Source of the DNA: Oligoflexales bacterium
GTDB taxonomy: Bacteria; Bdellovibrionota_B; Oligoflexia; Oligoflexales; JAPPIL01
Direction: 5' to 3'
DNA length: 64,000 bases
Assembly: GCA_965215515.1 (NCBI GenBank)
Contig: OZ244057.1
Location: 2,082,472-2,146,471 of the forward strand
In this document: positions 2 through 34,444 of the stretch, piece after piece
Layout: every line of letters starts with the position of its first letter
Position numbering within the stretch: the first letter of the stretch is position 1
The notes under the pieces: generated by a model
What the model was told of the DNA's origin: nothing
The model's input: the letters and a program-made list of their open reading frames with translations, nothing else
The model's database searches: none
Made by a program: the position numbers and the translations under genes

Positions 2-229
2 GCCCATCCCGACGTGCAGGAAGTGCGCGGCACTGGTCTATTGCTGGCGGTCGTTTTTCGCCACGCACGGCAAGGGGTGCAGGTTGCTCACCGTCTCGCC
101 ACACAGGGGGTTATTGCCGTTCCCGCAGGCGCACGCGGTGAGTGTTTAAGTATTACCCCCGCGCTCAACATTCCTGCCGACCTATTGTGGCAAGCGATAA
201 CGACACTGACAGAGGTGTGTGAGTATTAA
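2..229 (+). CDS. Class III aminotransferase, C-terminal end (5'-truncated by window)
   Basis: Frame open from window start; HPDVQEVRGTGLLLAV...LSITPALNI matches the VRGxGLL...lr.tPpL C-terminus of ArgD-like class III aminotransferases. Confidence 0.75.
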   Translation, partial: AHPDVQEVRGTGLLLAVVFRHARQGVQVAHRLATQGVIAVPAGARGECLSITPALNIPADLLWQAITTLTEVCEY

Positions 230-241
230 GTCAAGGAAGAG

Positions 242-266
242 GGCGGGGCTTGCCTCACACCCCGCC
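242..266. terminator. GC-rich hairpin between convergent genes
   Basis: ggcgggg-N11-ccccgcc perfect 7-bp stem between the aminotransferase stop (229) and the PBP stop (276). Confidence 0.5.
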
Positions 267-275
267 AACTTTGGT

Positions 276-2042
276 TTACAGTGGTACGGGTAATGAGAGG
301 TAGCGTTCTTGTCGAGAATCGTGCACTTGTAAGCTAACGAAAGCCATGTTCCTGTACGTGGAGGAGGGGATGTTGCCCTGAATCATATCGTGGAAAAGGT
401 GAGCGAACAGTTTGCTGGCTTGCCGTTGTCCTGCTGGCAAACGCATGCGACCGTACTCCGCTCCCAGCCAGATACCAGCACTGATGCGAGTGTTGTAGCC
501 GAGTACCCAGGCATTGTGTCGATCTGTGCTGTGTGTTGCATAGCTGCGTAGCTTACTGCCATGATGTTGTGCAAAGACACGCAGTGCTTCACCGACGATG
601 AAAGTTGCCTCGGCGGAAAATATTTGTGTTCCACGTGCCGATGTTGCGCTGAATAAGTTTTTGCCATCGCTGGCATCGATGCGCAAGACGTAGCGTGGCT
701 TGACTTGGTAACCGTGATTGGCAAACGCTGCGAAGGCTGCGGTCATCTGCTCTAGGGTAAAGTTGAGTGTAGGTATGGCAGGATCAAGTTCGATTGCGAA
801 AGGGGAGAGCATTTTATGCAACGAGCCCGCACCTACCTGCATCAGCAGTGCACCTACATCGACCTGTTGCGGTTGTAGGAAGGCACTATACAGGGTTGCG
901 AACGCAGGGTTGATGTCGTTGCTATCGTGTTGTGTTGCCGAGCCGTGGCTGAGTGCAGCAAGGATGAAGGGTAGTAGCAAGTGTTGCGCTTGTCGTCTCG
1001 TTTGCAGAGCGCGGTTGAACTGGGTATCGTGATAGGCCGAGCCACCCTGCACTGCGAGCACGTCACCATCGCGGGCGTGCAGGATGAAGAAAGCCGCTTG
1101 CAGTTCTTTGCCTTGTTTGCGGCGTAAGGCGGTAACGTGTTGACGAAAACGGCTGGCGGTGCGGCGTTGCAGTTTGCTGTCGAGGGCGGTGTGAATTTGG
1201 TAGCCGCGGTGGTTGAGTTCGTGCAGGCTGTACTTACGATGCAGTAGTTTGCGTACCGCGGCGTTGAAATATGGTGCGTGCGAGGTAAACTTTGGTGCGT
1301 GTGGGTAGACCTTTACGGTGGTTTTGCGCACGGTCTCGTAGTGCTGAGCTGAGATAATGTTGTCTGCCAGCATACGTTGCAGGACAAGTTGACTACGTTG
1401 TCGTGCCGCGGGGTAGTTGCGATGCGGGGCGAGGGCGCTCGGTGCTTTGGGTAGTGCTGCTAGTAAGGCAGCTTCGGGAAGGTTAAGTGCTCGGCTTGAT
1501 TTGCGAAAATAAATGCGACTGGCGGCTTCGACTCCATGTGCGCCGTTACCGAGATAGATGCTGTTTAAGTAGTAGGCAAGAATTTTTGTTTTGGGATATT
1601 TTTTTTCCAGCACTGCGGCAATCTGTGCCTCGCGGCTTTTGCGCAGCCAGGTTTTTTGGCGATTGAGAAACAGTATGCGTGCTAATTGCTGTGTGATGGT
1701 GCTTCCGCCCTGCTTGATCCTGCGTGTTCTGATGTTTGTCCACAGAGCACGCAGTGTCGCAAAATAATCTATGCCGCGGTGTGTAAAAAAATCTTTGTCT
1801 TCCGTGCTCAAGAATGCCTCTACCAAATAACGCGGCATTTCTTGCAGAGGCACGAAGTATCTTTTCTCTTGGGCAAATTCGCCGATCTTGATGCCGTGGC
1901 GGTCGTAAACTTCACTAGCAAGTGGTAGTTGGTTGCGCTCCAGTACAATTTGTGCAGGCACAACCGTCTCGATTTGCAGCAGTGAGTAGTATAGTGCAAA
2001 AACTGCGGGGATTGGTAATGTAATTTTTAGCAGTAGTTTCAT
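276..2042 (-). CDS. Class A penicillin-binding protein-like: intact transglycosylase, degenerate transpeptidase
   Basis: GT51 motifs EDKDFFTHRGID, GGSTITQQL, RKSRE, YLNSIYLG are present. The SxxK position reads RQAQHLLLPF, and no SxN or KTG is seen. Start taken at MKLLLKIT (2042). Confidence 0.85.
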   Translation of the reverse strand: MKLLLKITLPIPAVFALYYSLLQIETVVPAQIVLERNQLPLASEVYDRHGIKIGEFAQEKRYFVPLQEMPRYLVEAFLSTEDKDFFTHRGIDYFATLRALWTNIRTRRIKQGGSTITQQLARILFLNRQKTWLRKSREAQIAAVLEKKYPKTKILAYYLNSIYLGNGAHGVEAASRIYFRKSSRALNLPEAALLAALPKAPSALAPHRNYPAARQRSQLVLQRMLADNIISAQHYETVRKTTVKVYPHAPKFTSHAPYFNAAVRKLLHRKYSLHELNHRGYQIHTALDSKLQRRTASRFRQHVTALRRKQGKELQAAFFILHARDGDVLAVQGGSAYHDTQFNRALQTRRQAQHLLLPFILAALSHGSATQHDSNDINPAFATLYSAFLQPQQVDVGALLMQVGAGSLHKMLSPFAIELDPAIPTLNFTLEQMTAAFAAFANHGYQVKPRYVLRIDASDGKNLFSATSARGTQIFSAEATFIVGEALRVFAQHHGSKLRSYATHSTDRHNAWVLGYNTRISAGIWLGAEYGRMRLPAGQRQASKLFAHLFHDMIQGNIPSSTYRNMAFVSLQVHDSRQERYLSLPVPL

Positions 2043-2178
2043 GGGCGAACACGAGCAGTGGGAGGAAAGGCATCCTTCTAATAATAATTTTCGCACTATC
2101 TATATCGCTGTGCAATGCTACTTATTTTCCTCTCCCTTGCAACGTATTTCGTCATGTGTTAGCTTCGCTTCCCGCTAA

Positions 2179-2262
2179 GCTGCGGTGGCGGAATTGGTAG
2201 ACGCGGAGGGCTCAAAATCCTCTGGCAGCGATGCCGTGTGAGTTCGATTCTCACCCGCAGCA
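2179..2262 (+). tRNA. tRNA-Leu (anticodon CAA)
   Basis: Acceptor stem gctgcgg/ccgcagc, D-loop ggcggaattggtagacgc, anticodon arm gaggg-ctCAAaa-tcctc, long variable arm, T-loop gttcgatt. CCA is not encoded. Confidence 0.95.
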
Positions 2263-2278
2263 TGTTTTCCGCCTTACA

Positions 2279-3055
2279 TCAGGCCGAGGGTTTTTTCTTT
2301 TCGAGTGTTGTGAGCACGATGATGGACAGTTCGTACATGCCGTAGACTGGCAGGGCGAGGCCGACTTGGGAAATCGGGTCGGGTGGGGTGAGCAGTGCTG
2401 CGAGTACGACGATGCCGACGAGCACGAGTTTGCGGTGGGAACGCAGTGCCTGGCTGTCGGTAAGGCCGATAATGCCGAGTAGTACAAGAATGAGGGGGGT
2501 TTCGAAGATGAGGGCGAATGCGAAGATGAGGACGACGAGCAGCGAGATGTAATCGGCTACTGTGATGATGGGTGTACCGACTTTGAGGCCTATGGTGATG
2601 AGAAAATCGAGTGCCAGAGGCAGGATAGCGTAAAAACAGAATATAATACCGAGCAGGAACAGCGCGATCGAGCTGATCATGAAGGGAAAGACGTAGCGGC
2701 GTTCCTCGGGTAGCAGGCCTGGGGTGAGAAAACGCCAGAAGTGGAACAGCCACACGGGGCAGGCGCAGACGAGGGCGGCGAGGAATGCGACCTTGAGGTT
2801 GGCGAGGAACACTTCGAGTGGCGAGGTGAAGTGCAGGGCGTTGCTTGTTGCGGGTAGCGCTCGTGCGAGCGGGGCACGCAGAAAGGCCAGCAGTTGTTCG
2901 GAGAACAGCAGGAACAGTATAAACAGCGCAAGCACGGCGATGCACGAGGTGATGAGACGGGTGCGCAGTTCGGCAAGGTGGTCAAACAGCGGCATGATTT
3001 TTTCACTGCGATCGTCGTTGTTGGTGGAGGTAGGTAGGTTTTTGTTGTCGGTCAC
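2279..3055 (-). CDS. tatC: Twin-arginine translocase subunit TatC
   Basis: MPLFDHLAELRTRL, FTSPLEVF, FETP and LTPPDPISQ motifs; six TM segments. Confidence 0.95.
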   Translation of the reverse strand: MTDNKNLPTSTNNDDRSEKIMPLFDHLAELRTRLITSCIAVLALFILFLLFSEQLLAFLRAPLARALPATSNALHFTSPLEVFLANLKVAFLAALVCACPVWLFHFWRFLTPGLLPEERRYVFPFMISSIALFLLGIIFCFYAILPLALDFLITIGLKVGTPIITVADYISLLVVLIFAFALIFETPLILVLLGIIGLTDSQALRSHRKLVLVGIVVLAALLTPPDPISQVGLALPVYGMYELSIIVLTTLEKKKPSA

Positions 3056-3160
3056 GCTGATATTCTCCTCTGTCGTAGGGTATTATAGCAGGAATGTTTG
3101 CTAAATGTCTTTGTTTCTGGTAGCATGCCGCCTGTTTTTATTGATGGCGAGGGGTGTTGG

Positions 3161-4444
3161 GTGGAATTTGCAGAGTTGAGTGCAGGCGATCATAGGCTCA
3201 AGCTGCCGATCATGGAAGGGTCGGAGCGGGAGCGGGCGGTGGACATCAGGGAGTTGCGGGAGAAGACAGGTCTGATTACGCTTGATTCTGGTTATGGCAA
3301 CACGGGTGCTTGTCAGAGCTCCATCACTTACATCGATGGCGAGAAAGGTGTTCTCAACTATCGTGGCTACTCGATTGAGGATTTGGCTAACGGTGCGACT
3401 TTCGTTGAGGCTAGTTACTTATTGATTTATGGGCATTTGCCGACGGAAGTGGAGCTGGCTGATTTTCGTAGGTTGTTGATTCGCAACTCGTTGTTGCACG
3501 AGGACATGTTGCATTTCTATGATGGTTATCCCTCGACTGCGCATCCGATGGCAATTCTGTCGTCGATGATTTGCTCGCTTTCAAGTTATTATCCTGATTC
3601 GCTTGATCCGCAAGACCATGAGCAGGTTGAACGCCTCATCCCGCGGGTGCTATCTAAAATCAGAACTATCGCCGCGTTCGCCTACAAGAAGTCCATTGGG
3701 CAACCCGTAATTTATCCTGATAACAACCTCGACTACTGTTCTAACTTTTTGCACATGATGTTCGCGGTGCCTTCGGAAAAATACCTCATTGATCCTGACA
3801 TTGTAAGAGCTTTGAACATCTTGTTGATCCTGCATGCCGATCATGAGCAGAACTGCTCGACTTCAACCGTGCGGTTGGTGGGGTCAAGTGATGCTAATCT
3901 GTTCGCTTCGATTGCCGCGGGTATTTGCGCCTTGTGGGGGCCGAAGCACGGCGGGGCGAACCAAAAGGTAGTCGAGATGTTGCAGAGAATCGCCGACGAG
4001 GGCTTGGATGTCAAGGAAGTCGTGCGTATGGCAAAGGACAAAAGCAGTTCTTTCCGTTTGATGGGATTTGGGCATCGTGTCTACCGCAACTACGATCCGA
4101 GGGCACGAGTCATCAAGGAAGTATCGGATAAGTTGCTGGCCAAGCTCAATCGTTCCGACCCACTGCTTGACATCGCCAAAGAATTGGAGGAGCATGCCTT
4201 GAATGATGATTACTTCATCGAGCGCAAGCTCTACCCGAATGTTGATTTTTATTCGGGGATCACCTACCGTGCCATCGGTATTCCCCTCGATATGTTTACG
4301 GTGATGTTTGCCATTGGCAGAACCCCAGGCTGGATTGCTCACTGGAGAGAGATGCATCTTGAAGGTGACGGTCGTATTGGCAGACCGCGGCAGATTTACA
4401 CAGGGGAACGTAAGCGTGCCTTCACGGCGATTGCACAACGCTGA
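3161..4444 (+). CDS. gltA: Citrate synthase (type II)
   Basis: DSGYGNTGAC..SITYIDG, LHADHEQNCST, GPKHGGAN, GFGHRVY and YPNVDFYSG. The ORF is open from 3098; a GTG start at 3161 is preferred (gagggg RBS 6 nt upstream). Confidence 0.95.
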   Translation: MEFAELSAGDHRLKLPIMEGSERERAVDIRELREKTGLITLDSGYGNTGACQSSITYIDGEKGVLNYRGYSIEDLANGATFVEASYLLIYGHLPTEVELADFRRLLIRNSLLHEDMLHFYDGYPSTAHPMAILSSMICSLSSYYPDSLDPQDHEQVERLIPRVLSKIRTIAAFAYKKSIGQPVIYPDNNLDYCSNFLHMMFAVPSEKYLIDPDIVRALNILLILHADHEQNCSTSTVRLVGSSDANLFASIAAGICALWGPKHGGANQKVVEMLQRIADEGLDVKEVVRMAKDKSSSFRLMGFGHRVYRNYDPRARVIKEVSDKLLAKLNRSDPLLDIAKELEEHALNDDYFIERKLYPNVDFYSGITYRAIGIPLDMFTVMFAIGRTPGWIAHWREMHLEGDGRIGRPRQIYTGERKRAFTAIAQR

Positions 4445-4628
4445 AGGCAGGACAGTGACTGTGTGAGACTTTGTCGCTTTCTTCGACAATTCGCGCTGGC
4501 AACTCGTTGCTGTGCGAGTGTTTGTGTGTTGCTTTCTTGCTTCATGGATATGATAGAGGGGCGTATGCACAGGGGTTGTTATCGCTGTGTGTATGTGCCA
4601 TAGTGGTGGTACTGAGTTGGGGGAGATA

Positions 4629-5474
4629 ATGTCGGAGGGAGGCGATAGGGTGAGCGAGGGCGATAAGGGTGGTCGCGTGCCTACTGTGGCTGAGATAACG
4701 CAGCGTCTCGATCGTGTTGCTGCGCAGCAGGAGAAGACCGAGGCGCAGGTGGCTGAGAATTCTGTTGCACTGAAGGAGCTGATCGAGCAAAGCAAGCAGA
4801 ATGATAAAAAAACCAATGAGAAGATCGACAAGCTGGCTGAAAAAACCGACAGACAGATCGCAAAGACCAATGAGAAGATCGACAAGCTGGCTGAAAAAAC
4901 CGACAGACAGATCGCAAAGACCAATGAGAAGATCGACAAGCTGGCCGAAAAGACCAACGAAAAAATCGATAAGCTGGCCGAAAAGACCGACAGGCAAATC
5001 GCAAAGACAGAAAAGCTGGTGGGGAGATTGGCGAAGCAGATCGGGGGTGTGGACAAAATTTTCGGTGATATGGCGGAATACGTGTCTTTCACCAACTTGG
5101 AGCGGCTACTCCACGAGCAGGCTGGCATTGTCATCAAGGGTGTGACCAAGCGTTGGAGAATGACTCACGAGGGGCGTAGTTATGAGTTCGACTTGATAGC
5201 ACTTGGCACGGGTGTGGTGGTGGCGATTGAGGTCAAGACCACCCTACGTAGCGAGAACATCGACAGATTTTCCTCTTCTATGCTGGAGTTTCCTGCGATT
5301 TTTCCTGAATATAGGCGCAGCGACATCTACGGCGGCTTTGCCTACATGAAGGCTCAAGATGGTGCAGAGGACAGAGCGCACAAGCATGGCATACTGACTA
5401 TCCGTGCCATCGGCGGGTCGGCTTCGCAGTTAGTCGGCTTCGACGCGGATGCTCTGCGGAACTTCAAACACTGA
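4629..5474 (+). CDS. Coiled-coil repeat + PD-(D/E)XK nuclease-like protein (DUF3782-like)
   Basis: N-terminal coiled coil, then IGGVDKIFGDMAE and YEFDLIA...IEVKTTL (D...ExK). ATG 4629 follows ggggag. Confidence 0.75.
   Translation: MSEGGDRVSEGDKGGRVPTVAEITQRLDRVAAQQEKTEAQVAENSVALKELIEQSKQNDKKTNEKIDKLAEKTDRQIAKTNEKIDKLAEKTDRQIAKTNEKIDKLAEKTNEKIDKLAEKTDRQIAKTEKLVGRLAKQIGGVDKIFGDMAEYVSFTNLERLLHEQAGIVIKGVTKRWRMTHEGRSYEFDLIALGTGVVVAIEVKTTLRSENIDRFSSSMLEFPAIFPEYRRSDIYGGFAYMKAQDGAEDRAHKHGILTIRAIGGSASQLVGFDADALRNFKH
4812..5006 (+). repeat. Intragenic 54-bp (18-aa) tandem repeat with 33/21-bp submodules
   Basis: accaatgagaagatcgacaagctggctgaaaaaaccgacagacagatcgcaaag at 4812 and 4866; a 33-bp partial at 4920 is followed by a synonymous-variant copy. 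Confidence 0.95.
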
Positions 5475-27170: not shown

Positions 27171-28490
27171 CTATGTTTCTTTGCCACGTAGCTTCTCGAT
27201 CAAACACACCGTCTCCACGGCAACAGTGATGGTGCTGAGTAGCAAGCGTAAGATATAGGGTGCGTCGTCGCTATAGTTGTTGGGGTCGTCGAGCAGGTCG
27301 GTTTTGGGGTCAATTTTGCGATAGTAGCGTTCTACTATCCACTTCACTGGTGCATAGCCGCTGACTTGATATTGCCAAGTTTCAGCGGGAATGCCTGTGA
27401 CAGTGATGTCATCATTGTATTTGATACTTTGTTGATCTTTAGCTATCTTCATTTTAGTTACCAATAGGCTTGCAGGTGGTATGCGCTCTAAACGTGTCTC
27501 CTGGCCACGATACAAAATCTTCACCCCCGCGAGCTGTGGTTGCTGCTCATAACCGATATGCAACTCGTTGAACATAGTGCAGTAGTAGAGATGTTTTTTA
27601 ATAAAGGGACGATAGCTGGACAGTTTTATTTTATCAGAAGTAAAAGTTGCTTCTTTGCCTTTAATCAGCGATTGTTTGAGGCTACGACTCCATTTGATCT
27701 TTTTTTCGTTAAGCTCAATATGTTGATCGATATTTTTTACATTCAGCTGCTCACCTGCTAGTCGGTCGCGCTCACAGTTGTAAACACCGATCATCTCTGC
27801 CATGTTTGCCGCTACCATGCTGTGATCATAATTGTAAGCCCAGCCATCCCTATTTGTCTTCACACCACAGCTATACAGTGCAAAAATTCCCCCACCCCGC
27901 TTCTTATCGCCGAGCACGGGCAACTGCTCATAGTCACTATCGCGTTGATCGAGCCAATCACCATGCTTGTCAGGTGTAATTGTTTGCCAGTTGATGTTTG
28001 TGATTGAACTGTAAGCGGATATTTTTTGTAGTTTCTGTTCGCGACTGAGATAGTCACCGATATCATGGTAGTAAATTTCTGCCTCTTTAGTTAGTCTTCT
28101 GGGGCCTTTGACTAAAAAGCTGATCGCTACTGGTGTTCTGCTGTTTTGTCCGAATATTTTTCCACCCTCCTTGCGCGCTAACTCTCCTTTAGTACGTTGG
28201 TTACCGCGCAGATGAAAAGAATAGATGGCATCGAATTCTTCAACTAAGCATCGCCTTAGCCCTTGTGTGCTACGTTCATCAAGCATAGAGGCATTATGGA
28301 CAAAGCCTATAATACCGCCGCTGTCTCCAATTCTATCGCTCGCCCAGCGAATGGCTTTAATGTAGGAGTCGAGCAAAGCGCGCTTAAGTGTGGCATTTAA
28401 CTTAGCCATGTAGCTCTCTTGCACTCGCTTTCGTAAATGTGGATACACCGTGTTTTTGTTAGCATCGTTTTCTGATTTTTGCCCCACTGA
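27171..28490 (-). pseudogene. Type ISP restriction-modification enzyme remnant (C-terminal MTase/TRD part)
   Basis: SVGQKSENDAN, SYIKAIRWASDRI, LRGNQRT.GE..RKEGGKIFG..SRTP, YRPF, LHIGYE and WIVERY. Truncated just after the expected NPPY motif by acrB-derived DNA. Confidence 0.8.
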
Positions 28491-29591
28491 GGAAGATTTT
28501 ATTAGTATTATTGGTCGGCAAGGCATGCATAATCCGCGTGGGATGAAACGTGGGGCTGAGTATGCGGAGATTATGGTGTATTTAACGGATGCTTTGACGC
28601 GTGAACGTGACACGGCCACTATCGTTGAGGATGTACGCAGTAATGTTGTGCAGCCAGAAGGTTTGGAGGTGGTAAGTTTCAGGCAGGTGGCGGGCGGGCC
28701 GCCTGTGGGCAAGGCGGTCAGTATCGGTGTGCGTGGCGATGAGTATGTGAATATTTTGCCTGCGGTGCAGCAGTTAGAGGAACAGTTGCGTGCCGTTGAA
28801 GGTGTGACTGATGTCGAGAACAGTCATGTAACTGGCAAAGAGGAGATGCGTGTGCGAGTCAAGCAAGAGGCAGCTGCGGCTGCGCTGTTGTCGTTGCAGG
28901 ACATTGGCTTGGCGGTGCGTGCGGCGTTTGAAGGTATTGTGGCAACGACTATTCGTGGTCTCGATGAAGAAATAGATTTACGTGTCACATTGCAGCAAGA
29001 AGCACAGCAAGGAGCACAGGCGTTAGCTGATATTGAGATTCCTAATCGTCGTGGTCAGCTTATTCCGTTACGGAAGACTGCAAGTTGGGATACTGTCAGT
29101 GGGGTATCGGTTTATGAGCATGAAGACAATCAACGACAGGTGACGGTTACCGCGGAAGTTGACAACAAGGTGACCACTTCCGCCGTAGTGAATAGTTTTA
29201 TGCGCGAGAAGGTTGCCGCGATGGCAGCACAGCATCCTTCCCTCACTTTTCATTTTGGCGGTGAGGATAGCGATACTAAAGAGAGCATGGCATCGTTGCG
29301 GGTAACTTTTATTTTTGCCTTGTTTGGCATTATCTTCCTTCTAACATTGTTGTTTAAGAATTTATACCAGCCGTTTATCATCGCAACTACCATTCCGTTG
29401 GGTATTGCCGCAACTGTTTTTGCTTTCTATGTGCATGGCATGACGCTGAGTTTTTTGGCGATGATCGGCATTATTGCCTTAGCTGGTGTGGTGGTCAACA
29501 ATGCTATTGTGTTCATTGATTTTATCAATAGTGCACGGCGGCGTGGTTTGGAGAAGGTGGCTGCTGTCAAAGATGCCGCACAGCGACGTTT
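28491..29591 (+). pseudogene. 1,101-bp inverted duplicate of an internal acrB segment (9759-10859)
   Basis: The translation is identical to acrB from EDFISII to AAQRR except GARALAD to GAQALAD; no own start. Confidence 0.95.
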
Positions 29592-29737
29592 CCTCGTCTA
29601 ATCCACCTATTAACATTAGGTTCTTTATACAACTAGCTGAAACTACAGTAAAAAAAAACGAGAAAATTATCCCAACCAGGTATTATATCTGTTCATCATC
29701 GTATCATATTTATCTTACAGATTAAGAGCTTGCCTAA

Positions 29738-29761
29738 GGTTATGGTAAGTTTGACTGTGGT
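29738..29761 (+). repeat. 24-bp direct repeat left of the Rpn array
   Basis: ggttatggtaagtttgactgtggt; 23/24 match to 33616-33639. Confidence 0.8.
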
Positions 29762-29844
29762 TATGTTGGGAAATTTGGCCGCATTTGTTAGCCAAGTACA
29801 CCAGCCTCGTGTTAAAATATCGAGCACAGCATGACAGGGTGAAC

Positions 29845-30927
29845 ATGATTGGGCGACGAAGACGCATAGGGCAGAAAAGACAGCGCCACAAGGCTGCCAA
29901 AGCCCGTCACTCCCACCCTCATGACAGCGTCTTCAAGACAATCTTCAAGCGTCCCGAACACTGCCGTGCCTTGCTGCAGGTCTTGCTTTCCCCTAGCTTC
30001 TACGCCATCTTCAATTGGCCCGCGCTGCAGATCACCGAAAGCACCGCAGCGGGAAGGAAGGGACAGGAACGCAGAGCTGACATCGTACTGGAAGTGCCGT
30101 TGTGGCCTTCCAAAGCCCGTGTCATCATCACTATCATCTTGGAGCACAAGAGTTATCGTGACAACGACACCATCCTGCAGATGCTGGGCTATTACAACGA
30201 GATCGCCCAACAGACGGGCGGCATCATCCTCCCCATCATCGTCACCTGTGGCAAGGACAAGAGAGCAGTTATCCCCTCCGATTACCTTAGTTGGGCACTG
30301 CAAAGGCAGGGTGCACCCGAAGAGTTGAGGCGGCAACTGAAGAAAATTGCCAATTTTGCTTGTCCTTTAGTGAACTTACACGATTTATCCTACCGTCGCA
30401 TGCGCCGCGGAGGCGAGGTGGTGAGCTTGGCGTTGTTCGGCATACGTAACTACTGGGATATGGACGAAGAGGTAGTGGTCAAGATTCTCAAGAAGGCACG
30501 CCTGTTGCCACAACAGGAGCGAGAGTTTATGCTCAATGTGTTAATGGACTATTACGAATGTGCCGATAAGGGGTACGACGTGAGGGGGTTTGCGGAGATT
30601 GAACGTAAGCGTTTTCCACACCTGAAGGAGGAAGAGAGACTGATGCCAGAGATGGAATTTGGCCTTGATAGAGCGAGACAAGAGGGCATACGGCAGGGTA
30701 TGCGCAAGGGCAAGCGGCAAGGTATCGAGCAGGGTATCGAGCAGGGTATCGAGCAGGGTATCGAGCAGGGTATCGAGCAGGGTATGCGCAAGGGCGTAGA
30801 GCAAAAGCAGCGGGATGTTGTCGCGCGGATGTTGGCGAGAGGTCTGCCTGACAAGCAGATCTGTGACGTTACACAGGTTAGCACAAAAGAGCTAGCTGAC
30901 ATTAAGCGCGAGCTGCAAAAAAGCTGA
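29845..30927 (+). CDS. Rpn family nuclease, tandem copy 1 (5 GIEQ units)
   Basis: HPHDSVFK, RRADIV...ILEHKS, QMLGYY, EG/GIEQ repeats and a MLARGLPDKQICDVTQVS tail. Confidence 0.9.
   Translation: MIGRRRRIGQKRQRHKAAKARHSHPHDSVFKTIFKRPEHCRALLQVLLSPSFYAIFNWPALQITESTAAGRKGQERRADIVLEVPLWPSKARVIITIILEHKSYRDNDTILQMLGYYNEIAQQTGGIILPIIVTCGKDKRAVIPSDYLSWALQRQGAPEELRRQLKKIANFACPLVNLHDLSYRRMRRGGEVVSLALFGIRNYWDMDEEVVVKILKKARLLPQQEREFMLNVLMDYYECADKGYDVRGFAEIERKRFPHLKEEERLMPEMEFGLDRARQEGIRQGMRKGKRQGIEQGIEQGIEQGIEQGIEQGMRKGVEQKQRDVVARMLARGLPDKQICDVTQVSTKELADIKRELQKS
30643..30927 (+). CDS. Putative intragenic RpnS-like protein, copy 1
   Basis: aaggagg at 30625-30631 upstream of the in-frame ATG 30643 (MPEMEFGLDRARQEG...). 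Equivalent starts lie at 31901 and 33135. Confidence 0.55.
   Translation: MPEMEFGLDRARQEGIRQGMRKGKRQGIEQGIEQGIEQGIEQGIEQGMRKGVEQKQRDVVARMLARGLPDKQICDVTQVSTKELADIKRELQKS
30721..30780 (+). repeat. 12-bp VNTR (ggtatcgagcag, GIEQ) x5; x3 at 31979-32014; x6 at 33213-33284
   Basis: Direct count in the sequence. Confidence 0.97.
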
Positions 30928-31102
30928 TCGTCAAGTAGCTCACAAATTTGCCCATCAAGTATGATACACAGTGATTCCTGAGTTCCGTGAGCAAAGCGAA
31001 TACTTATCGCGGCTGCCTGAGTGAGGTAGTCCGCGAGTGCATTTGTTAGCCAAGTACACCAGCCTCGTGTTAAAATATCGAACACAGCATGACAAGGTGA
31101 AC

Positions 31103-32161
31103 ATGACTGGGCGACGAAGACGCATAGGGCGGAAGAGACAGCGCCGCAAGGCTGCCAAAGCCCGTCACTCCCACCCTCATGACAGCGTCTTCAAGACAAT
31201 CTTCAAGCGTCCCGAACACTGCCGTGCCTTGCTACAGGTCTTGCTTTCCCCTAGCTTCTACGCCATCTTCAATTGGCCCGCGCTGCAGATCACCGAAAGC
31301 ACCGCAGCGGGAAGGAAGGGACAGGAACGCAGAGCTGACATCGTACTGGAAGTGCCGTTGTGGCCTTCCAAAGCCCGTGTCATCATCACTATCATCTTGG
31401 AGCACAAGAGTTACCGTGACAACGACACCATCCTGCAGATGCTGGGCTATTACAACGAGATCGCCCAACAGACAGGCGGCATCATCCTCCCCATCATCGT
31501 CACCTGTGGCAAGGACAAGAGAGCAGTTATCCCCTCCGATTACCTTAGTTGGGCACTGCAAAGGCAGGGTGCACCCGAAGAGTTGAGGCGGCAACTGAAG
31601 AAAATTGCCAATTTTGCTTGTCCTTTAGTGAACTTACACGATTTATCCTACCGTCGCATGCGCCGCGGAGGCGAGGTGGTGAGCTTGGCGTTGTTCGGCA
31701 TACGTAACTACTGGGATATGGACGAGGAGGTAGTGGTCAAGATTCTCAAGAAGGCACGCCTGTTGCCACAACAGGAGCGAGAGTTTATGCTCAATGTGTT
31801 AATGGACTACTACGAATGTGCCGATAAGGGGTACGACGTGAGGGGGTTTGCGGAGATTGAACGTAAGCGTTTTCCACACCTGAAGGAGGAAGAAAGACTG
31901 ATGCCAGAGATGGAATTTGGCCTTGATAGAGCGAGACAAGAGGGCATACGGCAGGGTATGCGCAAAGGCAAGCGGCAAGGTATCGAGCAAGGTATCGAGC
32001 AAGGTATCGAGCAGGGTATGCGCAAGGGCGTAGAGCAAAAGCAGCGGGATGTTGTCGCGCGGATGTTGGCGAGAGGTCTGCCTGACAAGCAGATCTGTGA
32101 CGTTACACAGGTTAGCACAAAAGAGCTAGCTGACATTAAGCGCGAGCTGCAAAAAAGCTGA
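31103..32161 (+). CDS. Rpn family nuclease, tandem copy 2 (3 GIEQ units)
   Basis: Near-identical to copy 1; the stops are 1,234 bp apart. Confidence 0.9.
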   Translation: MTGRRRRIGRKRQRRKAAKARHSHPHDSVFKTIFKRPEHCRALLQVLLSPSFYAIFNWPALQITESTAAGRKGQERRADIVLEVPLWPSKARVIITIILEHKSYRDNDTILQMLGYYNEIAQQTGGIILPIIVTCGKDKRAVIPSDYLSWALQRQGAPEELRRQLKKIANFACPLVNLHDLSYRRMRRGGEVVSLALFGIRNYWDMDEEVVVKILKKARLLPQQEREFMLNVLMDYYECADKGYDVRGFAEIERKRFPHLKEEERLMPEMEFGLDRARQEGIRQGMRKGKRQGIEQGIEQGIEQGMRKGVEQKQRDVVARMLARGLPDKQICDVTQVSTKELADIKRELQKS

Positions 32162-32336
32162 TCGTCAAGTAGCTCACAAATTTGCCCATCAAGTATGATA
32201 CACAGTGATTCCTGAGTTCCGTGAGCAAAGCGAATACTTATCGCGGCTGCCTGAGTGAGGTAGTCCGCGAGTGCATTTGTTAGCCAAGTACACCAGCCTC
32301 GTGTTAAAATATCGAACACAGCATGACAAGGTGAAC

Positions 32337-33431
32337 ATGACTGGGCGACGAAGACGCATAGGGCGGAAGAGACAGCGCCGCAAGGCTGCCAAAGCCCGTC
32401 ACTCCCACCCTCATGACAGCGTCTTCAAGACAATCTTCAAGCGTCCCGAACACTGCCGTGCCTTGCTACAGGTCTTGCTTTCCCCTAGCTTCTACACCAT
32501 CTTCAATTGGCCCGCGCTGCAGATCACCGAAAGCACCGCAGCGGGAAGGAAGGGACAGGAACGCAGAGCTGACATCGTACTGGAAGTGCCGTTGTGGCCT
32601 TCCAAAGCCCGTGTCATCATCACTATCATCTTGGAGCACAAGAGTTACCGTGACAACGACACCATCCTGCAGATGCTGGGCTATTACAACGAGATCGCCC
32701 AACAGACAGGCGGTATAATCCTTCCCATCATCGTCACCTGTGGCAAGGACAAGAGAGCAGTTATCCCCTCCGATTACCTTAGTTGGGCACTGCAAAGGCA
32801 GGGTGCACCCGAAGAGTTGAGGCGGCAACTGAAGAAAATTGCCAATTTTGCTTGTCCTTTAGTGAACTTACACGATTTATCCTACCGTCGCATGCGCCGC
32901 GGAGGCGAGGTGGTGAGCTTGGCGTTGTTCGGCATACGTAACTACTGGGATATGGACGAAGAGGTAGTGGTCAAGATTCTCAAGAAGGCACGCCTGTTGC
33001 CACAACAGGAGCGAGAGTTTATGCTCAATGTGTTAATGGACTACTACGAATGTGCCGATAAGGGGTACGACGTGAGGGGGTTTGCGGAGATTGAACGTAA
33101 GCGTTTTCCACACCTGAAGGAGGAAGAGAGACTGATGCCAGAGATGGAATTTGGCCTTGATAGAGCGAGACAAGAGGGCATACGGCAGGGTATGCGCAAA
33201 GGCAAGCGGCAAGGTATCGAGCAGGGTATCGAGCAGGGTATCGAGCAGGGTATCGAGCAGGGTATCGAGCAAGGTATCGAGCAGGGTATGCGCAAGGGCG
33301 TAGAGCAAAAGCAGCGGGATGTCGTCGCGCGGATGTTGGCGAGAGGTATGCCTGACAAGCAGATCTGTGACGTTACACAGGTTAGCACAAAAGAGCTAGC
33401 TGACATTAAGCATGAGCTGCAAAAAAGCTGA
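32337..33431 (+). CDS. Rpn family nuclease, tandem copy 3 (6 GIEQ units)
   Basis: Near-identical; differs at FYTIF, GMPD and KHELQ. Confidence 0.9.
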   Translation: MTGRRRRIGRKRQRRKAAKARHSHPHDSVFKTIFKRPEHCRALLQVLLSPSFYTIFNWPALQITESTAAGRKGQERRADIVLEVPLWPSKARVIITIILEHKSYRDNDTILQMLGYYNEIAQQTGGIILPIIVTCGKDKRAVIPSDYLSWALQRQGAPEELRRQLKKIANFACPLVNLHDLSYRRMRRGGEVVSLALFGIRNYWDMDEEVVVKILKKARLLPQQEREFMLNVLMDYYECADKGYDVRGFAEIERKRFPHLKEEERLMPEMEFGLDRARQEGIRQGMRKGKRQGIEQGIEQGIEQGIEQGIEQGIEQGMRKGVEQKQRDVVARMLARGMPDKQICDVTQVSTKELADIKHELQKS

Positions 33432-33615
33432 TCGTCAGGTAGCTCACAAATTTGCCCATCAAGTATGATACACAGTGATTCCTGAGTTCCGTGGGCAGGG
33501 CGCTTAATTTAATTTTTTGAGCGACAGAAAGCCTGATTTTGCGGTGTTTTGTCTGTCTTCCCGAAAGCCTCCCCGCGTGCCAAAAACCTCTACCATCGAA
33601 TTGATACTGACTTAT

Positions 33616-33639
33616 GGTTATGGTAAGTTTGACAGTGGT
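33616..33639 (+). repeat. 24-bp direct repeat right of the Rpn array
   Basis: ggttatggtaagtttgacagtggt. Confidence 0.8.
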
Positions 33640-33655
33640 ACAGAAGGCAACGCAC

Positions 33656-34444
33656 CTAGTGACCGCCCGTACAGAAATCGAGCACACGTGCACACAGCTC
33701 GGCTGTCTTCTCCAACAACAGCAGGTGCCCCGCCTGAGGCAGCAAACATAACTCAGCATTAGGAATTGCCTGGACAAATACTTCCGCCGCCCGCGGGTCG
33801 ATCACCCGATCCTCCGCACCATGTACAATCAATACAGGACAACTAAACTGGGCAAGACGAGCACGAGTGCTGAAACCTAGCATGGCCTTATCCTGACCTG
33901 CTCCCCCTGAACCTACACCCTGCTGCTCCCACATCTGCTTCGCCATCGCCATTAACAAAGGACGATTACGACGAAAAAAATCCGCCGCAACATAATGCCG
34001 CAACATTTCCTGCCCCGCGGCAAGACTACCCCACCCCCGCTTACCACGCAACAAAGCAAAACTACTGTCACAAAAACTAGAAACAAGCACGAGCCTAACA
34101 ACACGCTCAGGAAAATTCAACGCCAACAACTGTGCAATAGCACCACCCATCGAAATACCAAGCAGCGCGGAGGACTCAATACCCAGATAATCCCAAAGGG
34201 CAACAACATCAGATACCATATCCTGCAAAGTGAAAGGATTGCTAACCCGCGAACGACCAGCCGCACGATTATCAAGTACAACCACCCTGCAAGATGCCTG
34301 CACCAGTGCCTTGCCAAGATGACGAAAGTCCGTGCACGGCCGCGCATAACCGTTAACCAGCGTCAGTGTGCGCCGTATCACAGGATACGACCAACACTCA
34401 TAGTAGATGCGCTCACCTTTGTTAACAAGGTACGGCATCGACAC
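33656..34444 (-). CDS. Alpha/beta hydrolase
   Basis: Nucleophile elbow GISMGG, HGAEDRVI and AGHLL. Confidence 0.9.
   Translation of the reverse strand: MSMPYLVNKGERIYYECWSYPVIRRTLTLVNGYARPCTDFRHLGKALVQASCRVVVLDNRAAGRSRVSNPFTLQDMVSDVVALWDYLGIESSALLGISMGGAIAQLLALNFPERVVRLVLVSSFCDSSFALLRGKRGWGSLAAGQEMLRHYVAADFFRRNRPLLMAMAKQMWEQQGVGSGGAGQDKAMLGFSTRARLAQFSCPVLIVHGAEDRVIDPRAAEVFVQAIPNAELCLLPQAGHLLLLEKTAELCARVLDFCTGGH

What the first reader, a model, noticed from the sequence alone, without database searches (positions are those of the whole stretch)
29781..33493. Triple tandem of near-identical rpn genes that differ mainly in antitoxin repeat number (5/3/6 GIEQ)
Seen: periods of 1,234 and 1,270 bp. 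The nuclease domains are almost identical (one A/T change), while the RpnS region has 5, 3 and 6 GIEQ units plus L/M and R/H changes. Each unit has its own tgttaaaat extended -10-like motif about 30 nt before the ATG. Inference: accordion-type amplification of a toxin-antitoxin defence gene, with VNTR slippage diversifying the antitoxin/oligomerisation helix. Copy-specific SNPs argue against a pure assembly artefact.
Basis: partly seen in the sequence, partly recalled or inferred. Interest (0 to 1): 0.65.

Follow-up and report, generated by a model that had tools for sequence, protein, structure and literature searches.

The report
Tandem Rpn toxin genes, different repeat lengths
Three almost identical copies of a known kind of DNA-cutting toxin gene with a built-in antitoxin sit head to tail and differ mainly in the number of a four-amino-acid repeat; this repeat was already shown in E. 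coli to decide which antitoxin fits which toxin, so this is a clean new example of a known system, not a new kind.

Summary
Window 29781-33493 contains three head-to-tail rpn units (CDS 29845-30927, 31103-32161, 32337-33431), 97-99% identical, with 5, 3 and 6 GGTATCGAGCAR (GIEQ) units. Each has its own TGTTAAAAT extended -10.

The proteins are Rpn/YhgA-like PD-(D/E)XK nucleases (PF04754) and keep HD, D79 and E100-x-K102. An in-frame AAGGAGG-N11-ATG opens the long C-terminal helix. That Met aligns with M244 of E. coli RpnA, the proven RpnS start.

The triplet belongs to a seven-member paralog group in this 2.18 Mb Oligoflexales-like genome. All seven GIEQ counts differ: 1, 3, 5, 6, 8, 10, 12. 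The copies are a mosaic, which indicates gene conversion. The nuclease core is under purifying selection (pN/pS 0.09).

Across three genomes of the genus, only 2 of 109 near-identical paralog pairs share a tract length, against about 8-9 expected (P about 0.001-0.004).

This is not a transient "accordion" amplification. The array copies are no closer to each other than to the dispersed copies.

Rpn arrays, four-residue repeat variation and repeat-matched neutralisation were published by Zhong et al. 2023. The idea that repeats insulate paralogs was already proposed in the accompanying commentary.

The parts
29781..33493 (+). Whole array of three tandem rpn units
   Evidence: Direct-repeat families D2-D4. 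Unit alignment and boundaries.
29845..30927 (+). rpn copy 1 (RpnL, 360 aa, 5 GIEQ)
   Evidence: ORF. PF04754 E=2.2e-12. HD, D79 and E100-x-K102 intact.
31103..32161 (+). rpn copy 2 (RpnL, 352 aa, 3 GIEQ)
   Evidence: ORF. PF04754 E=2.1e-12. AF2 model pLDDT 91.
32337..33431 (+). rpn copy 3 (RpnL, 364 aa, 6 GIEQ)
   Evidence: ORF. PF04754 E=4e-12. Catalytic residues intact.
29789..29818 (+). Promoter-like site of copy 1 (TAGCCA-18-TAAAAT with TG). The same site occurs at 31047-31076 and 32281-32310.
   Evidence: Promoter scan. CTCGTGTTAAAAT is the most upstream sequence shared by all seven paralogs. Transcription not shown.
30625..30927 (+). Predicted RpnS of copy 1: SD AAGGAGG 30625-30631, internal ATG 30643, 94 aa
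   Evidence: The Met column aligns with RpnA M244. SD plus start is conserved in 62 of 66 rpn genes against 9.5% of control codons.
31883..32161 (+). Predicted RpnS of copy 2: SD 31883-31889, ATG 31901, 86 aa
   Evidence: AF2 helix 266-323 begins at this Met.
33117..33431 (+). Predicted RpnS of copy 3: SD 33117-33123, ATG 33135, 98 aa
30721..30780 (+). 12-nt VNTR of copy 1, 5 x GGTATCGAGCAG
   Evidence: TRF and codon-level listing.
31979..32014 (+). 12-nt VNTR of copy 2, 3 units (CAA, CAA, CAG)
33213..33284 (+). 12-nt VNTR of copy 3, 6 units (fifth ends in CAA)
30505..30533 (+). Internal promoter-like site (TTGCCA-17-TATGCT) about 110 nt before the internal ATG. Also at 31763-31791 and 32997-33025.
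   Evidence: Consensus scan only. It fits the internal TSS reported for E. coli rpn genes (PMC10400941). Not tested.
30928..31040 (+). Inter-copy spacer 1, identical to spacer 2 at 32162-32274. It contains the hairpin CGCGGCTGCCT..AGGTAGTCCGCG at 31007-31036.
   Evidence: 118 nt are 100% identical between the two junctions. The last 45 nt also precede copy B1 of the second array. Fold (z = -1.5, weak).
29738..29761 (+). Left copy of a 24-nt direct repeat bracketing the array (18 nt exact); right copy at 33616-33639
33480..33565 (+). Copy of a dispersed repeat of about 85-110 nt that overlaps the 3' end of unit 3. The array spacers keep only its first ~27 nt.
   Evidence: At least 15 copies in the genome.

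Best explanation
The region holds three separately promoted, probably functional Rpn-type 'gene-within-gene' toxin-antitoxin genes.

How each gene is built:
- It encodes a full-length PD-(D/E)XK DNA endonuclease (RpnL).
- From an internal Shine-Dalgarno plus ATG, it also encodes a small protein (RpnS) identical to the C-terminal long helix plus HTH-like end.
- The only large difference between copies is the number of GIEQ units (5, 3, 6) in that shared helix.

How the array arose (inferred):
- One illegitimate tandem duplication occurred, with its downstream breakpoint inside a dispersed short repeat.
- Unequal crossing-over then added the third copy; the two spacers are identical.
- Slippage of the perfect 12-nt units changed helix length.
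- Gene conversion with four further paralogs elsewhere in the genome keeps the nuclease parts nearly identical.

Why the lengths differ (inferred):
- In E. coli RpnC, an RpnS blocks only an RpnL with the same repeat number.
- By that rule, the seven different lengths (1, 3, 5, 6, 8, 10, 12 GIEQ) would make each copy a self-contained toxin/antitoxin pair that does not cross-neutralise the others.

Shown here: gene structure, family membership, conservation of the internal start, the length differences, mosaicism, and purifying selection on the core.

Inferred: translation of RpnS, toxicity, length-matched neutralisation, and any defence role.
For: Family: PF04754 at 47 bits against a cut-off of 21. 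D79 and E100 are invariant, and H26, D27 and S103 nearly invariant, in a 49-sequence alignment. All are intact in the three copies.

Structure: the AF2 model has pLDDT 91. Helix 266-323 starts at Met267 and contains the repeat, followed by two short helices.

Internal start:
- Met267 aligns with the 'KELIM' Met of Salmonella RpnA-like proteins. That matches K240/E241/M244, the RBS and start residues that Zhong et al. mutated in E. coli RpnA (PMC10400941).
- 62 of 66 rpn ORFs in three genomes have an SD of at least 5 nt before an in-frame ATG or GTG about 14 residues before the G-x-x-x tract. Only 9.5% of control in-frame start codons do.

C-terminal domain: the family profile hits PDB 7TH0 (RpnA-S) at E=0.0089 in the right place.

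Paralogs: seven copies have 1, 3, 5, 6, 8, 10 and 12 GIEQ.

Selection: core pN/pS is 0.09.

Gene conversion: 77 of 136 site pairs are four-gamete incompatible.

Length distinctness: in 10 clusters with nuclease domains at least 90% identical, only 2 of 109 pairs have equal tract length. Permutation expects 8.4-9.2 (P=0.0035 and 0.001).

Other arrays behave the same way. A 4-copy array in the related genome OY282434.1 has counts 5, 9, 4, 7. A 4-copy array in a Spirochaetaceae MAG has 10, 10, 12, 13.

Published rule: only RpnC-S with the same repeat number blocks RpnC-L, and rpn arrays arise by tandem duplication (PMC10400941).
Against: - There is no expression, translation or activity data for this organism.
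- The SD-to-ATG spacing is long at 11 nt.
- The NCBIfam TIGR01784 score (38.8) is below its cut-off of 52.1.
- Foldseek gave no significant PDB match for the whole protein or for RpnS alone. The RpnS-only model has pLDDT of only 69.
- For the seven-member group alone, all-distinct counts are not significant (P=0.14).
- Equal counts do occur: 7,7 in this genome and 10,10 in L025.
- Perfect 12-nt repeats mutate fast, so much of the variation could be neutral.
- The assembly could not be checked with reads.
Confidence: 0.7

Rival explanations
1. Neutral slippage noise. The copies are redundant duplicates, and the different GIEQ numbers only reflect the high mutation rate of a perfect 12-nt repeat, with no consequence for toxin-antitoxin pairing.
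For: The units are perfect or near-perfect 12-mers. The one equal-count pair in this genome (7,7) has an impure tract and 5% DNA divergence, so purity appears to drive instability. L025 has two adjacent copies with equal counts. The seven-copy group alone is not significantly over-dispersed (P=0.14).
Against: Neutral stepwise change from a common ancestor, and gene conversion, should both produce more ties than random. The data show fewer: 2 of 109 against about 8-9 expected, P about 0.001-0.004. In E. coli, adding one repeat abolishes neutralisation (PMC10400941).
Confidence: 0.3
2. Primarily a selfish, self-spreading nuclease gene and not a host defence system. On this view the family expands because the nuclease promotes its own duplication and insertion, the built-in antitoxin makes each copy addictive, and the array is one product of that proliferation.
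For: There are about 20 rpn genes or fragments in 2.18 Mb here, 92 matches in a 2.84-Mb congener, and none in 17 other genomes of the order. Target-like direct repeats bracket the array (24 nt) and copy D (about 255 nt). Gene fragments (acrB, Type ISP) lie next to the array. The extent of shared flanks varies between copies.
Against: There are no defined ends, no inverted repeats and no fixed-length duplication, and copies B and C have no flanking repeat. Strong purifying selection on the core fits either reading. A plasmid Rpn protects E. coli from phages (PMC10400941). This rival does not exclude the toxin-antitoxin mechanism.
Confidence: 0.3
3. Assembly artefact. Strain variants of a single rpn gene with different repeat numbers were strung together by the assembler.
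For: The genome looks like a metagenome-assembled single contig, since its relatives are MAGs. No reads could be examined. No second assembly of the species was found.
Against: The two internal spacers are identical and differ from both outer flanks. Copy-specific SNPs are shared with dispersed paralogs that sit in unique contexts. A second array has a different junction. Similar arrays occur in two independent assemblies.
Confidence: 0.05

Closest known systems
E. coli RpnA-E and plasmid RpnP2: RpnL toxin with intragenic RpnS antitoxin (Zhong et al. 2023, PNAS, PMC10400941; RpnA-S structure PDB 7TH0)
   Same: - PF04754 PD-(D/E)XK core with HD...D...ExK.
- An internal RBS and start at the homologous alignment column (RpnA M244).
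- Four-residue G/hydrophobic/charged repeats early in the first long helix of RpnS.
- A three-helix, HTH-like C-terminus.
- Repeat number that varies between close relatives.
- Arrays formed by tandem duplication without defined ends.
   Different: - Only 20-26% identical to enterobacterial Rpn proteins.
- The host is an Oligoflexales-like bacterium with a small genome.
- It has an extra arginine-rich N-terminal tail of about 25 residues.
- The variation is seen between seven co-resident paralogs, not between strains.
- Nothing has been tested experimentally here.
Hypothesis of Koonin and Makarova (commentary, PMC10400984) that repeat variation prevents trans-inhibition among multiple rpn copies
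   Same: The pattern found here is what that hypothesis predicts: near-identical co-resident copies, each with a different repeat number.
   Different: The commentary offers the idea without data. Here there is a count-based test (2 of 109 equal pairs against about 8-9 expected), but still no functional test.
rpn arrays in relatives: OY282434.1 (Oligoflexales MAG; L093) and CBDDOY010000001.1 (Spirochaetaceae MAG; L025)
   Same: Four-copy tandem arrays with nuclease parts 99-100% identical and different G-x-x-x counts: 5, 9, 4, 7 and 10, 10, 12, 13.
   Different: They belong to different rpn subfamilies (about 34% and 23% identical to the copies here). L025 contains one pair with equal counts.
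EcoR124I / EcoR124II type I specificity subunits (TAEL repeat number sets the recognition-site spacer)
   Same: The number of four-residue helical repeats, changed by 12-nt slippage, acts as a molecular ruler that changes specificity (cited in PMC10400941).
   Different: There the ruler sets DNA-site spacing. Here it is proposed to set protein-protein pairing.

Membership tests
Rpn / YhgA-like nuclease (PF04754, COG5464, TIGR01784) | Profile match above the curated threshold | tested here: met
   PF04754 scores 46.6-47.5 bits against a cut-off of 21 for all three copies. TIGR01784 scores 38.8-38.9 bits, below its cut-off of 52.1, so this is a divergent member.
Rpn / YhgA-like nuclease (PF04754, COG5464, TIGR01784) | PD-(D/E)XK catalytic residues (N-terminal HD, D, ExK) | tested here: met
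   H26-D27, D79 and E100-H-K102 are present in all three copies. D79 and E100 are invariant in the 49-sequence alignment.
Rpn / YhgA-like nuclease (PF04754, COG5464, TIGR01784) | Restriction-endonuclease-like fold | tested here: inconclusive
   The AF2 model is confident (pLDDT 91). Foldseek against PDB gives only weak hits (E at least 5e-3), among them MspJI, Cap4, BstEII, Kpn2I and EndoMS.
Rpn / YhgA-like nuclease (PF04754, COG5464, TIGR01784) | DNA endonuclease activity and toxicity on overexpression | not testable with these tools
   Needs expression and assay.
RpnL/RpnS gene-within-gene toxin-antitoxin | Internal translation start with RBS at the start of the C-terminal domain | tested here: met
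   AAGGAGG-N11-ATG at 30625/30643, 31883/31901 and 33117/33135. The Met aligns with RpnA M244. SD plus start is present in 94% of 66 genes against 9.5% of controls. Translation itself is not shown.
RpnL/RpnS gene-within-gene toxin-antitoxin | Four-residue repeats beginning 8-20 residues after the RpnS Met, within its first long helix | tested here: met
   The G-x-x-x periodic tract starts 14 residues after Met267. The perfect GIEQ units start 26 residues after it. The tract lies inside predicted helix 266-323.
RpnL/RpnS gene-within-gene toxin-antitoxin | RpnS fold like PDB 7TH0 (long helix plus two short helices, HTH-like) | tested here: inconclusive
   The profile hits 7TH0 at E=0.0089 over chain residues 11-48. 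The model has the same three-helix order. Foldseek finds only non-significant HTH matches such as TrpR-like and resolvase HTH, and not 7TH0.
RpnL/RpnS gene-within-gene toxin-antitoxin | Repeat number varies among close relatives | tested here: met
   Seven paralogs 98-99% identical outside the repeat have 1, 3, 5, 6, 8, 10 and 12 GIEQ. Between-strain variation could not be tested because no other strain was found.
RpnL/RpnS gene-within-gene toxin-antitoxin | RpnS binds and blocks only the RpnL with matching repeat number; anti-phage effect | not testable with these tools
   Known only from E. coli experiments (PMC10400941). PADLOC gives only a match of the C-terminal part (residues 259-326) to model C3a178, 'putative invertase' (E=8.3e-08).
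Genomic 'accordion' (recent, unstable tandem amplification) | Copies essentially identical and closest to each other; copy number heterogeneous in the population | tested here: not met
   Array copies differ by 10-17 substitutions per 1023 nt and are no closer to each other than to dispersed paralogs. They are mosaic. Population heterogeneity could not be tested.
Insertion sequence / transposon | Defined ends with terminal inverted repeats and a fixed-length target-site duplication | tested here: not met
   The seven copies share flanks of different extent on both sides. Bracketing direct repeats are 24 nt (array), about 255 nt (copy D) and absent (B, C).

The most novel reading that the evidence does not exclude
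Co-resident, near-identical Rpn paralogs are under selection to carry different helix lengths. On this reading, repeat number acts as a length code that keeps each toxin paired only with its own internal antitoxin. Tandem arrays, 12-nt slippage and gene conversion would then work together as a generator of new, mutually insulated toxin-antitoxin (defence) modules from a single gene.
Probability: 0.4. Interest if true: 0.6.

Novelty: new member of a known kind. Interest (0 to 1): 0.4.

Why it matters
The Rpn toxin/intragenic-antitoxin system and its hypervariable four-residue repeat are published. So is the rule that one extra repeat breaks toxin-antitoxin pairing. What drives the variation is still open.

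This locus is a natural experiment. Seven copies are 98-99% identical outside the repeat, and in the nuclease domain proper (residues 21-283) they differ at only two amino-acid positions. All seven sit in one genome and differ chiefly in helix length.

The shortage of equal lengths among close paralogs in this genus is the first count-based hint, to my knowledge from the papers searched, that distinct lengths are favoured within a genome. The three array copies would make a ready-made panel for testing length-matched neutralisation.

Tried and rejected
- Other strains: none were found. The exact proteins are not in the protein collection. A 35-nt subfamily-specific pattern gave no metagenome hit. 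The nearest homologue outside this genome is 70% identical by BLASTP.
- PDB by sequence with a single protein: no hit.
- Foldseek with the whole model and with the RpnS model: nothing significant.
- Rfam on 29500-33800: nothing.
- Spacer hairpin and the dispersed repeat: folding energy is not better than shuffles, so no RNA or terminator claim is made.
- Terminator scan: no plus-strand terminator between the copies.
- Minus-strand ORFs across the repeats (for example 30552-31085, 'PCSIPCS...'): treated as by-products of the repeat, not genes.
- 'IS-like element' reading: rejected on the variable ends.
- Supplementary files of Zhong et al. are not held. I could not check whether their array figure already shows differing repeat numbers within arrays.


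Full report
**What is there**

Window 29781-33493 holds three head-to-tail copies of a unit of about 1.23-1.27 kb. Exact anchors place the unit starts at 29783, 31041 and 32275 and the stop codons at 30925-30927, 32159-32161 and 33429-33431.

The spacing is 1258 and 1234 bp start to start, and 1234 and 1270 bp stop to stop.

An alignment of the units shows 24 substitutions: 12 specific to copy 1 (mostly at the 5' end), 3 to copy 2 and 9 to copy 3. It also shows length differences of whole 12-nt units. The tracts are:
- 5 x GGTATCGAGCAG at 30721-30780
- 3 units at 31979-32014
- 6 units at 33213-33284

Each unit carries TGTTAAAAT, an extended -10, ending 27 nt before the most plausible start codon (ATG at 29845, 31103, 32337). 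A scan also finds TAGCCA-18-TAAAAT with TG at each.

Copy 1 also differs at three positions of the arginine-rich N-terminal tail. Copy 3 has L->M and R->H changes in the C-terminal part.

**What the genes are**

All three proteins match Pfam PF04754 (Transposase_31, YhgA-like) at about 47 bits against a cut-off of 21. The NCBIfam Rpn subfamily model scores below its cut-off, so these are divergent members.

In a 49-sequence alignment that includes Salmonella, Leptospira and environmental Rpn proteins, D79 and E100 are invariant. H26, D27 and S103 are nearly invariant. All three copies keep HD, RADIV and ILEHKS.

An AlphaFold2 model of copy 2 is confident (pLDDT 91, pTM 0.75). It shows an alpha/beta core, then a 58-residue helix (266-323) and two short helices.

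Foldseek against PDB gave only weak matches, several of them PD-(D/E)XK restriction enzymes. I treat the fold test as inconclusive.

**The internal antitoxin**

Zhong et al. 2023 (PMC10400941) established several points for E. coli rpn genes:
- They make a full-length toxic endonuclease (RpnL).
- They also make a small RpnS antitoxin from an internal start. In RpnA the RBS and start were killed by K240R, E241D and M244L.
- RpnS is a three-helix protein (PDB 7TH0).
- Four-residue repeats lie in its long first helix and vary in number between strains.
- Only an RpnC-S with the same repeat number blocks RpnC-L.

Here each copy has AAGGAGG followed 11 nt later by an in-frame ATG, at 30643, 31901 and 33135. 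That Met (residue 267) sits at the first residue of the predicted long helix. It falls in the same alignment column as the Met of the 'KELIM' motif of Salmonella RpnA-like proteins, which matches K240/E241/M244 of E. coli RpnA.

I tested the start comparatively on 66 full-length rpn ORFs from this genome and two congeners. Of these, 62 (94%) have an in-frame ATG or GTG preceded by an SD-like match of at least 5 nt, almost always 14 residues before the G-x-x-x tract. The encoded residues at that point differ between subfamilies. Only 9.5% of other in-frame start codons in the same genes have such an SD.

The family profile hits 7TH0 at E=0.0089 over the HTH-like end. An RpnS-only model (pLDDT 69) has the same three-helix order but gives no significant structural match.

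So the internal start is well supported by sequence and comparison. Translation, binding and neutralisation are inferred.

**The array is part of a seven-member family**

The genome is one 2.18-Mb contig with 52.6% GC. Its nearest relatives are Oligoflexales MAGs.

It holds four more copies of the same subfamily:
- a second tandem pair 47 kb upstream of the array (10 and 8 GIEQ)
- two dispersed copies (12 and 1 GIEQ)

There are also two remnants and about a dozen more distant rpn genes.

The seven copies differ by only 10-22 substitutions per 1023 nt outside the repeat. All seven repeat numbers differ: 1, 3, 5, 6, 8, 10, 12.

The three array copies are no closer to each other than to the other four. 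Copy 1 differs from copy 2 by 11, from copy 3 by 17, and from dispersed copy C by 10. In addition, 77 of 136 pairs of informative sites fail the four-gamete test. Copy 1 shares its 5' flank (TATGTTGGGAAATTT...) and its 5' SNPs with dispersed copy D. Copies 2 and 3 share theirs with the first copy of the other array.

This is reticulate evolution by gene conversion among established paralogs.

**Selection**

- Nuclease core (residues 21-283): pN/pS is 0.09, so the copies are maintained as working genes.
- First 20 residues: pN/pS is about 1.
- RpnS part: six times more segregating sites per nucleotide than the core.

**How the array formed**

The two spacers are 100% identical over 118 nt. This fits one founding duplication followed by unequal crossing-over.

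The last 45 nt of the spacer are the natural upstream sequence of the first copy of the other array. The preceding ~27 nt are the beginning of a dispersed repeat of about 85-110 nt. That repeat is complete downstream of copy 3 and has at least 15 copies in the genome. The founding junction therefore joined the inside of that repeat to a point 45 nt upstream of the unit.

The second array has a different, shorter junction (TTTGCCCAT|GCATTTG), so it arose independently. This agrees with the statement by Zhong et al. that rpn arrays arise by tandem duplications of different kinds.

All seven copies share upstream sequence only from CTCGTGTTAAAAT onward. This indirectly supports that motif as the promoter.

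The whole array is bracketed by a 24-nt direct repeat (29738 and 33616). Copy D is bracketed by a repeat of about 255 nt. Copies B and C have none. The ends are not defined, so this is not an IS.

**Is the length difference more than noise?**

I collected 66 rpn ORFs from this genome and two congeners and grouped those with nuclease domains at least 90% identical. This gave ten clusters, each within one genome, and 109 within-cluster pairs. Only 2 pairs have the same G-x-x-x tract length.

Shuffling lengths over all 66 genes expects 8.4 equal pairs (P=0.0035). Shuffling only among the 46 clustered genes expects 9.2 (P=0.001).

Neutral stepwise slippage from a shared ancestor, and gene conversion, would both give more ties than random, not fewer. 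The result therefore points to selection for distinct lengths.

Caveats:
- For the seven-copy group alone the pattern is not significant (P=0.14).
- The loci in the congener were chosen by me from near-full-length hits.
- Ties do exist. The 7,7 pair in this genome has an impure tract and 5% DNA divergence, and a Spirochaetaceae array has 10, 10, 12, 13.

A four-copy array in the congener has 5, 9, 4, 7 with nuclease parts 99-100% identical.

The idea that repeat variation prevents trans-inhibition among multiple copies was already stated by Koonin and Makarova (PMC10400984). Here it gains supporting counts but is not new.

**Comparison and verdict**

This is a divergent but clear member of the Rpn L/S gene-within-gene toxin-antitoxin family, in a phylum where it has not been studied. 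Tandem arrays, four-residue repeat hypervariability and length-matched neutralisation are all published.

New here:
- the demonstration that the differences lie between co-resident, gene-converting paralogs
- conservation of the internal SD and start across 66 genes of this genus
- a modest statistical signal for length distinctness

An assembly artefact cannot be formally excluded. It is unlikely given the identical internal spacers, the unique flanks, the SNPs shared with dispersed copies, and similar arrays in two independent assemblies.

Noticed in passing
window 33480-33565, and at least 14 other places in the genome (e.g. G000 C1:244478, 102316, 1747256): A dispersed repeat of about 85-110 nt, TCCTGAGTTCCGTGGGTAGGGCGCTTAATTTAATTTTTTGAGCGAC...GTCTGTCTTCC(TTTTTTGTAGTGCCTGA), has at least 15 copies. 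It has no Rfam match and no better-than-shuffle fold. The breakpoint of the rpn array duplication lies inside it.
   Followed up: partly
window 29848-29890, 31106-31148, 32340-32382 (residues 2-15 of each copy): The arginine-rich N-terminal tail (M-x-GRRRR-x-x-x-KRQR-x-KAAKA) is a hot spot of amino-acid replacements among the seven paralogs. Six of its 7 segregating sites are nonsynonymous, with pN/pS about 1 against 0.09 in the core. The model has low confidence there (pLDDT 54-57).
   Followed up: partly
G000 C1:229698-230708 (copy D, outside the window): The dispersed copy with a single GIEQ is bracketed by a direct repeat of about 255 nt of its insertion site (segments of 91, 99 and 63 nt exact). 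The array here is bracketed by only 24 nt.
   Followed up: partly
L025 (CBDDOY010000001.1, Spirochaetaceae MAG) 2-5053: A four-copy rpn tandem array has nuclease parts 100% identical and G-x-x-x counts of 10, 10, 12, 13. The same array-plus-VNTR pattern therefore occurs in another phylum, here with one equal pair.
   Followed up: partly
G001 (= OY282434.1), whole genome: There are 92 rpn matches in a 2.84-Mb congener, including several tandem arrays (e.g. L093 with four copies, counts 5, 9, 4, 7). None of 17 other genomes of the order has a match at E<=1e-10.
   Followed up: partly
window 27171-29601: Gene fragments lie immediately upstream of the array: an AcrB piece covering only profile positions 593-963 of 1021, and on the other strand an ORF with a Type ISP C-terminal specificity domain. 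The neighbourhood looks rearranged or eroded.
   Followed up: no
G000 C1:1754276-1754407 and C1:239755-240069: Short remnants of the same rpn subfamily (82-86% and 66-67% identical pieces), so copies also decay.
   Followed up: no
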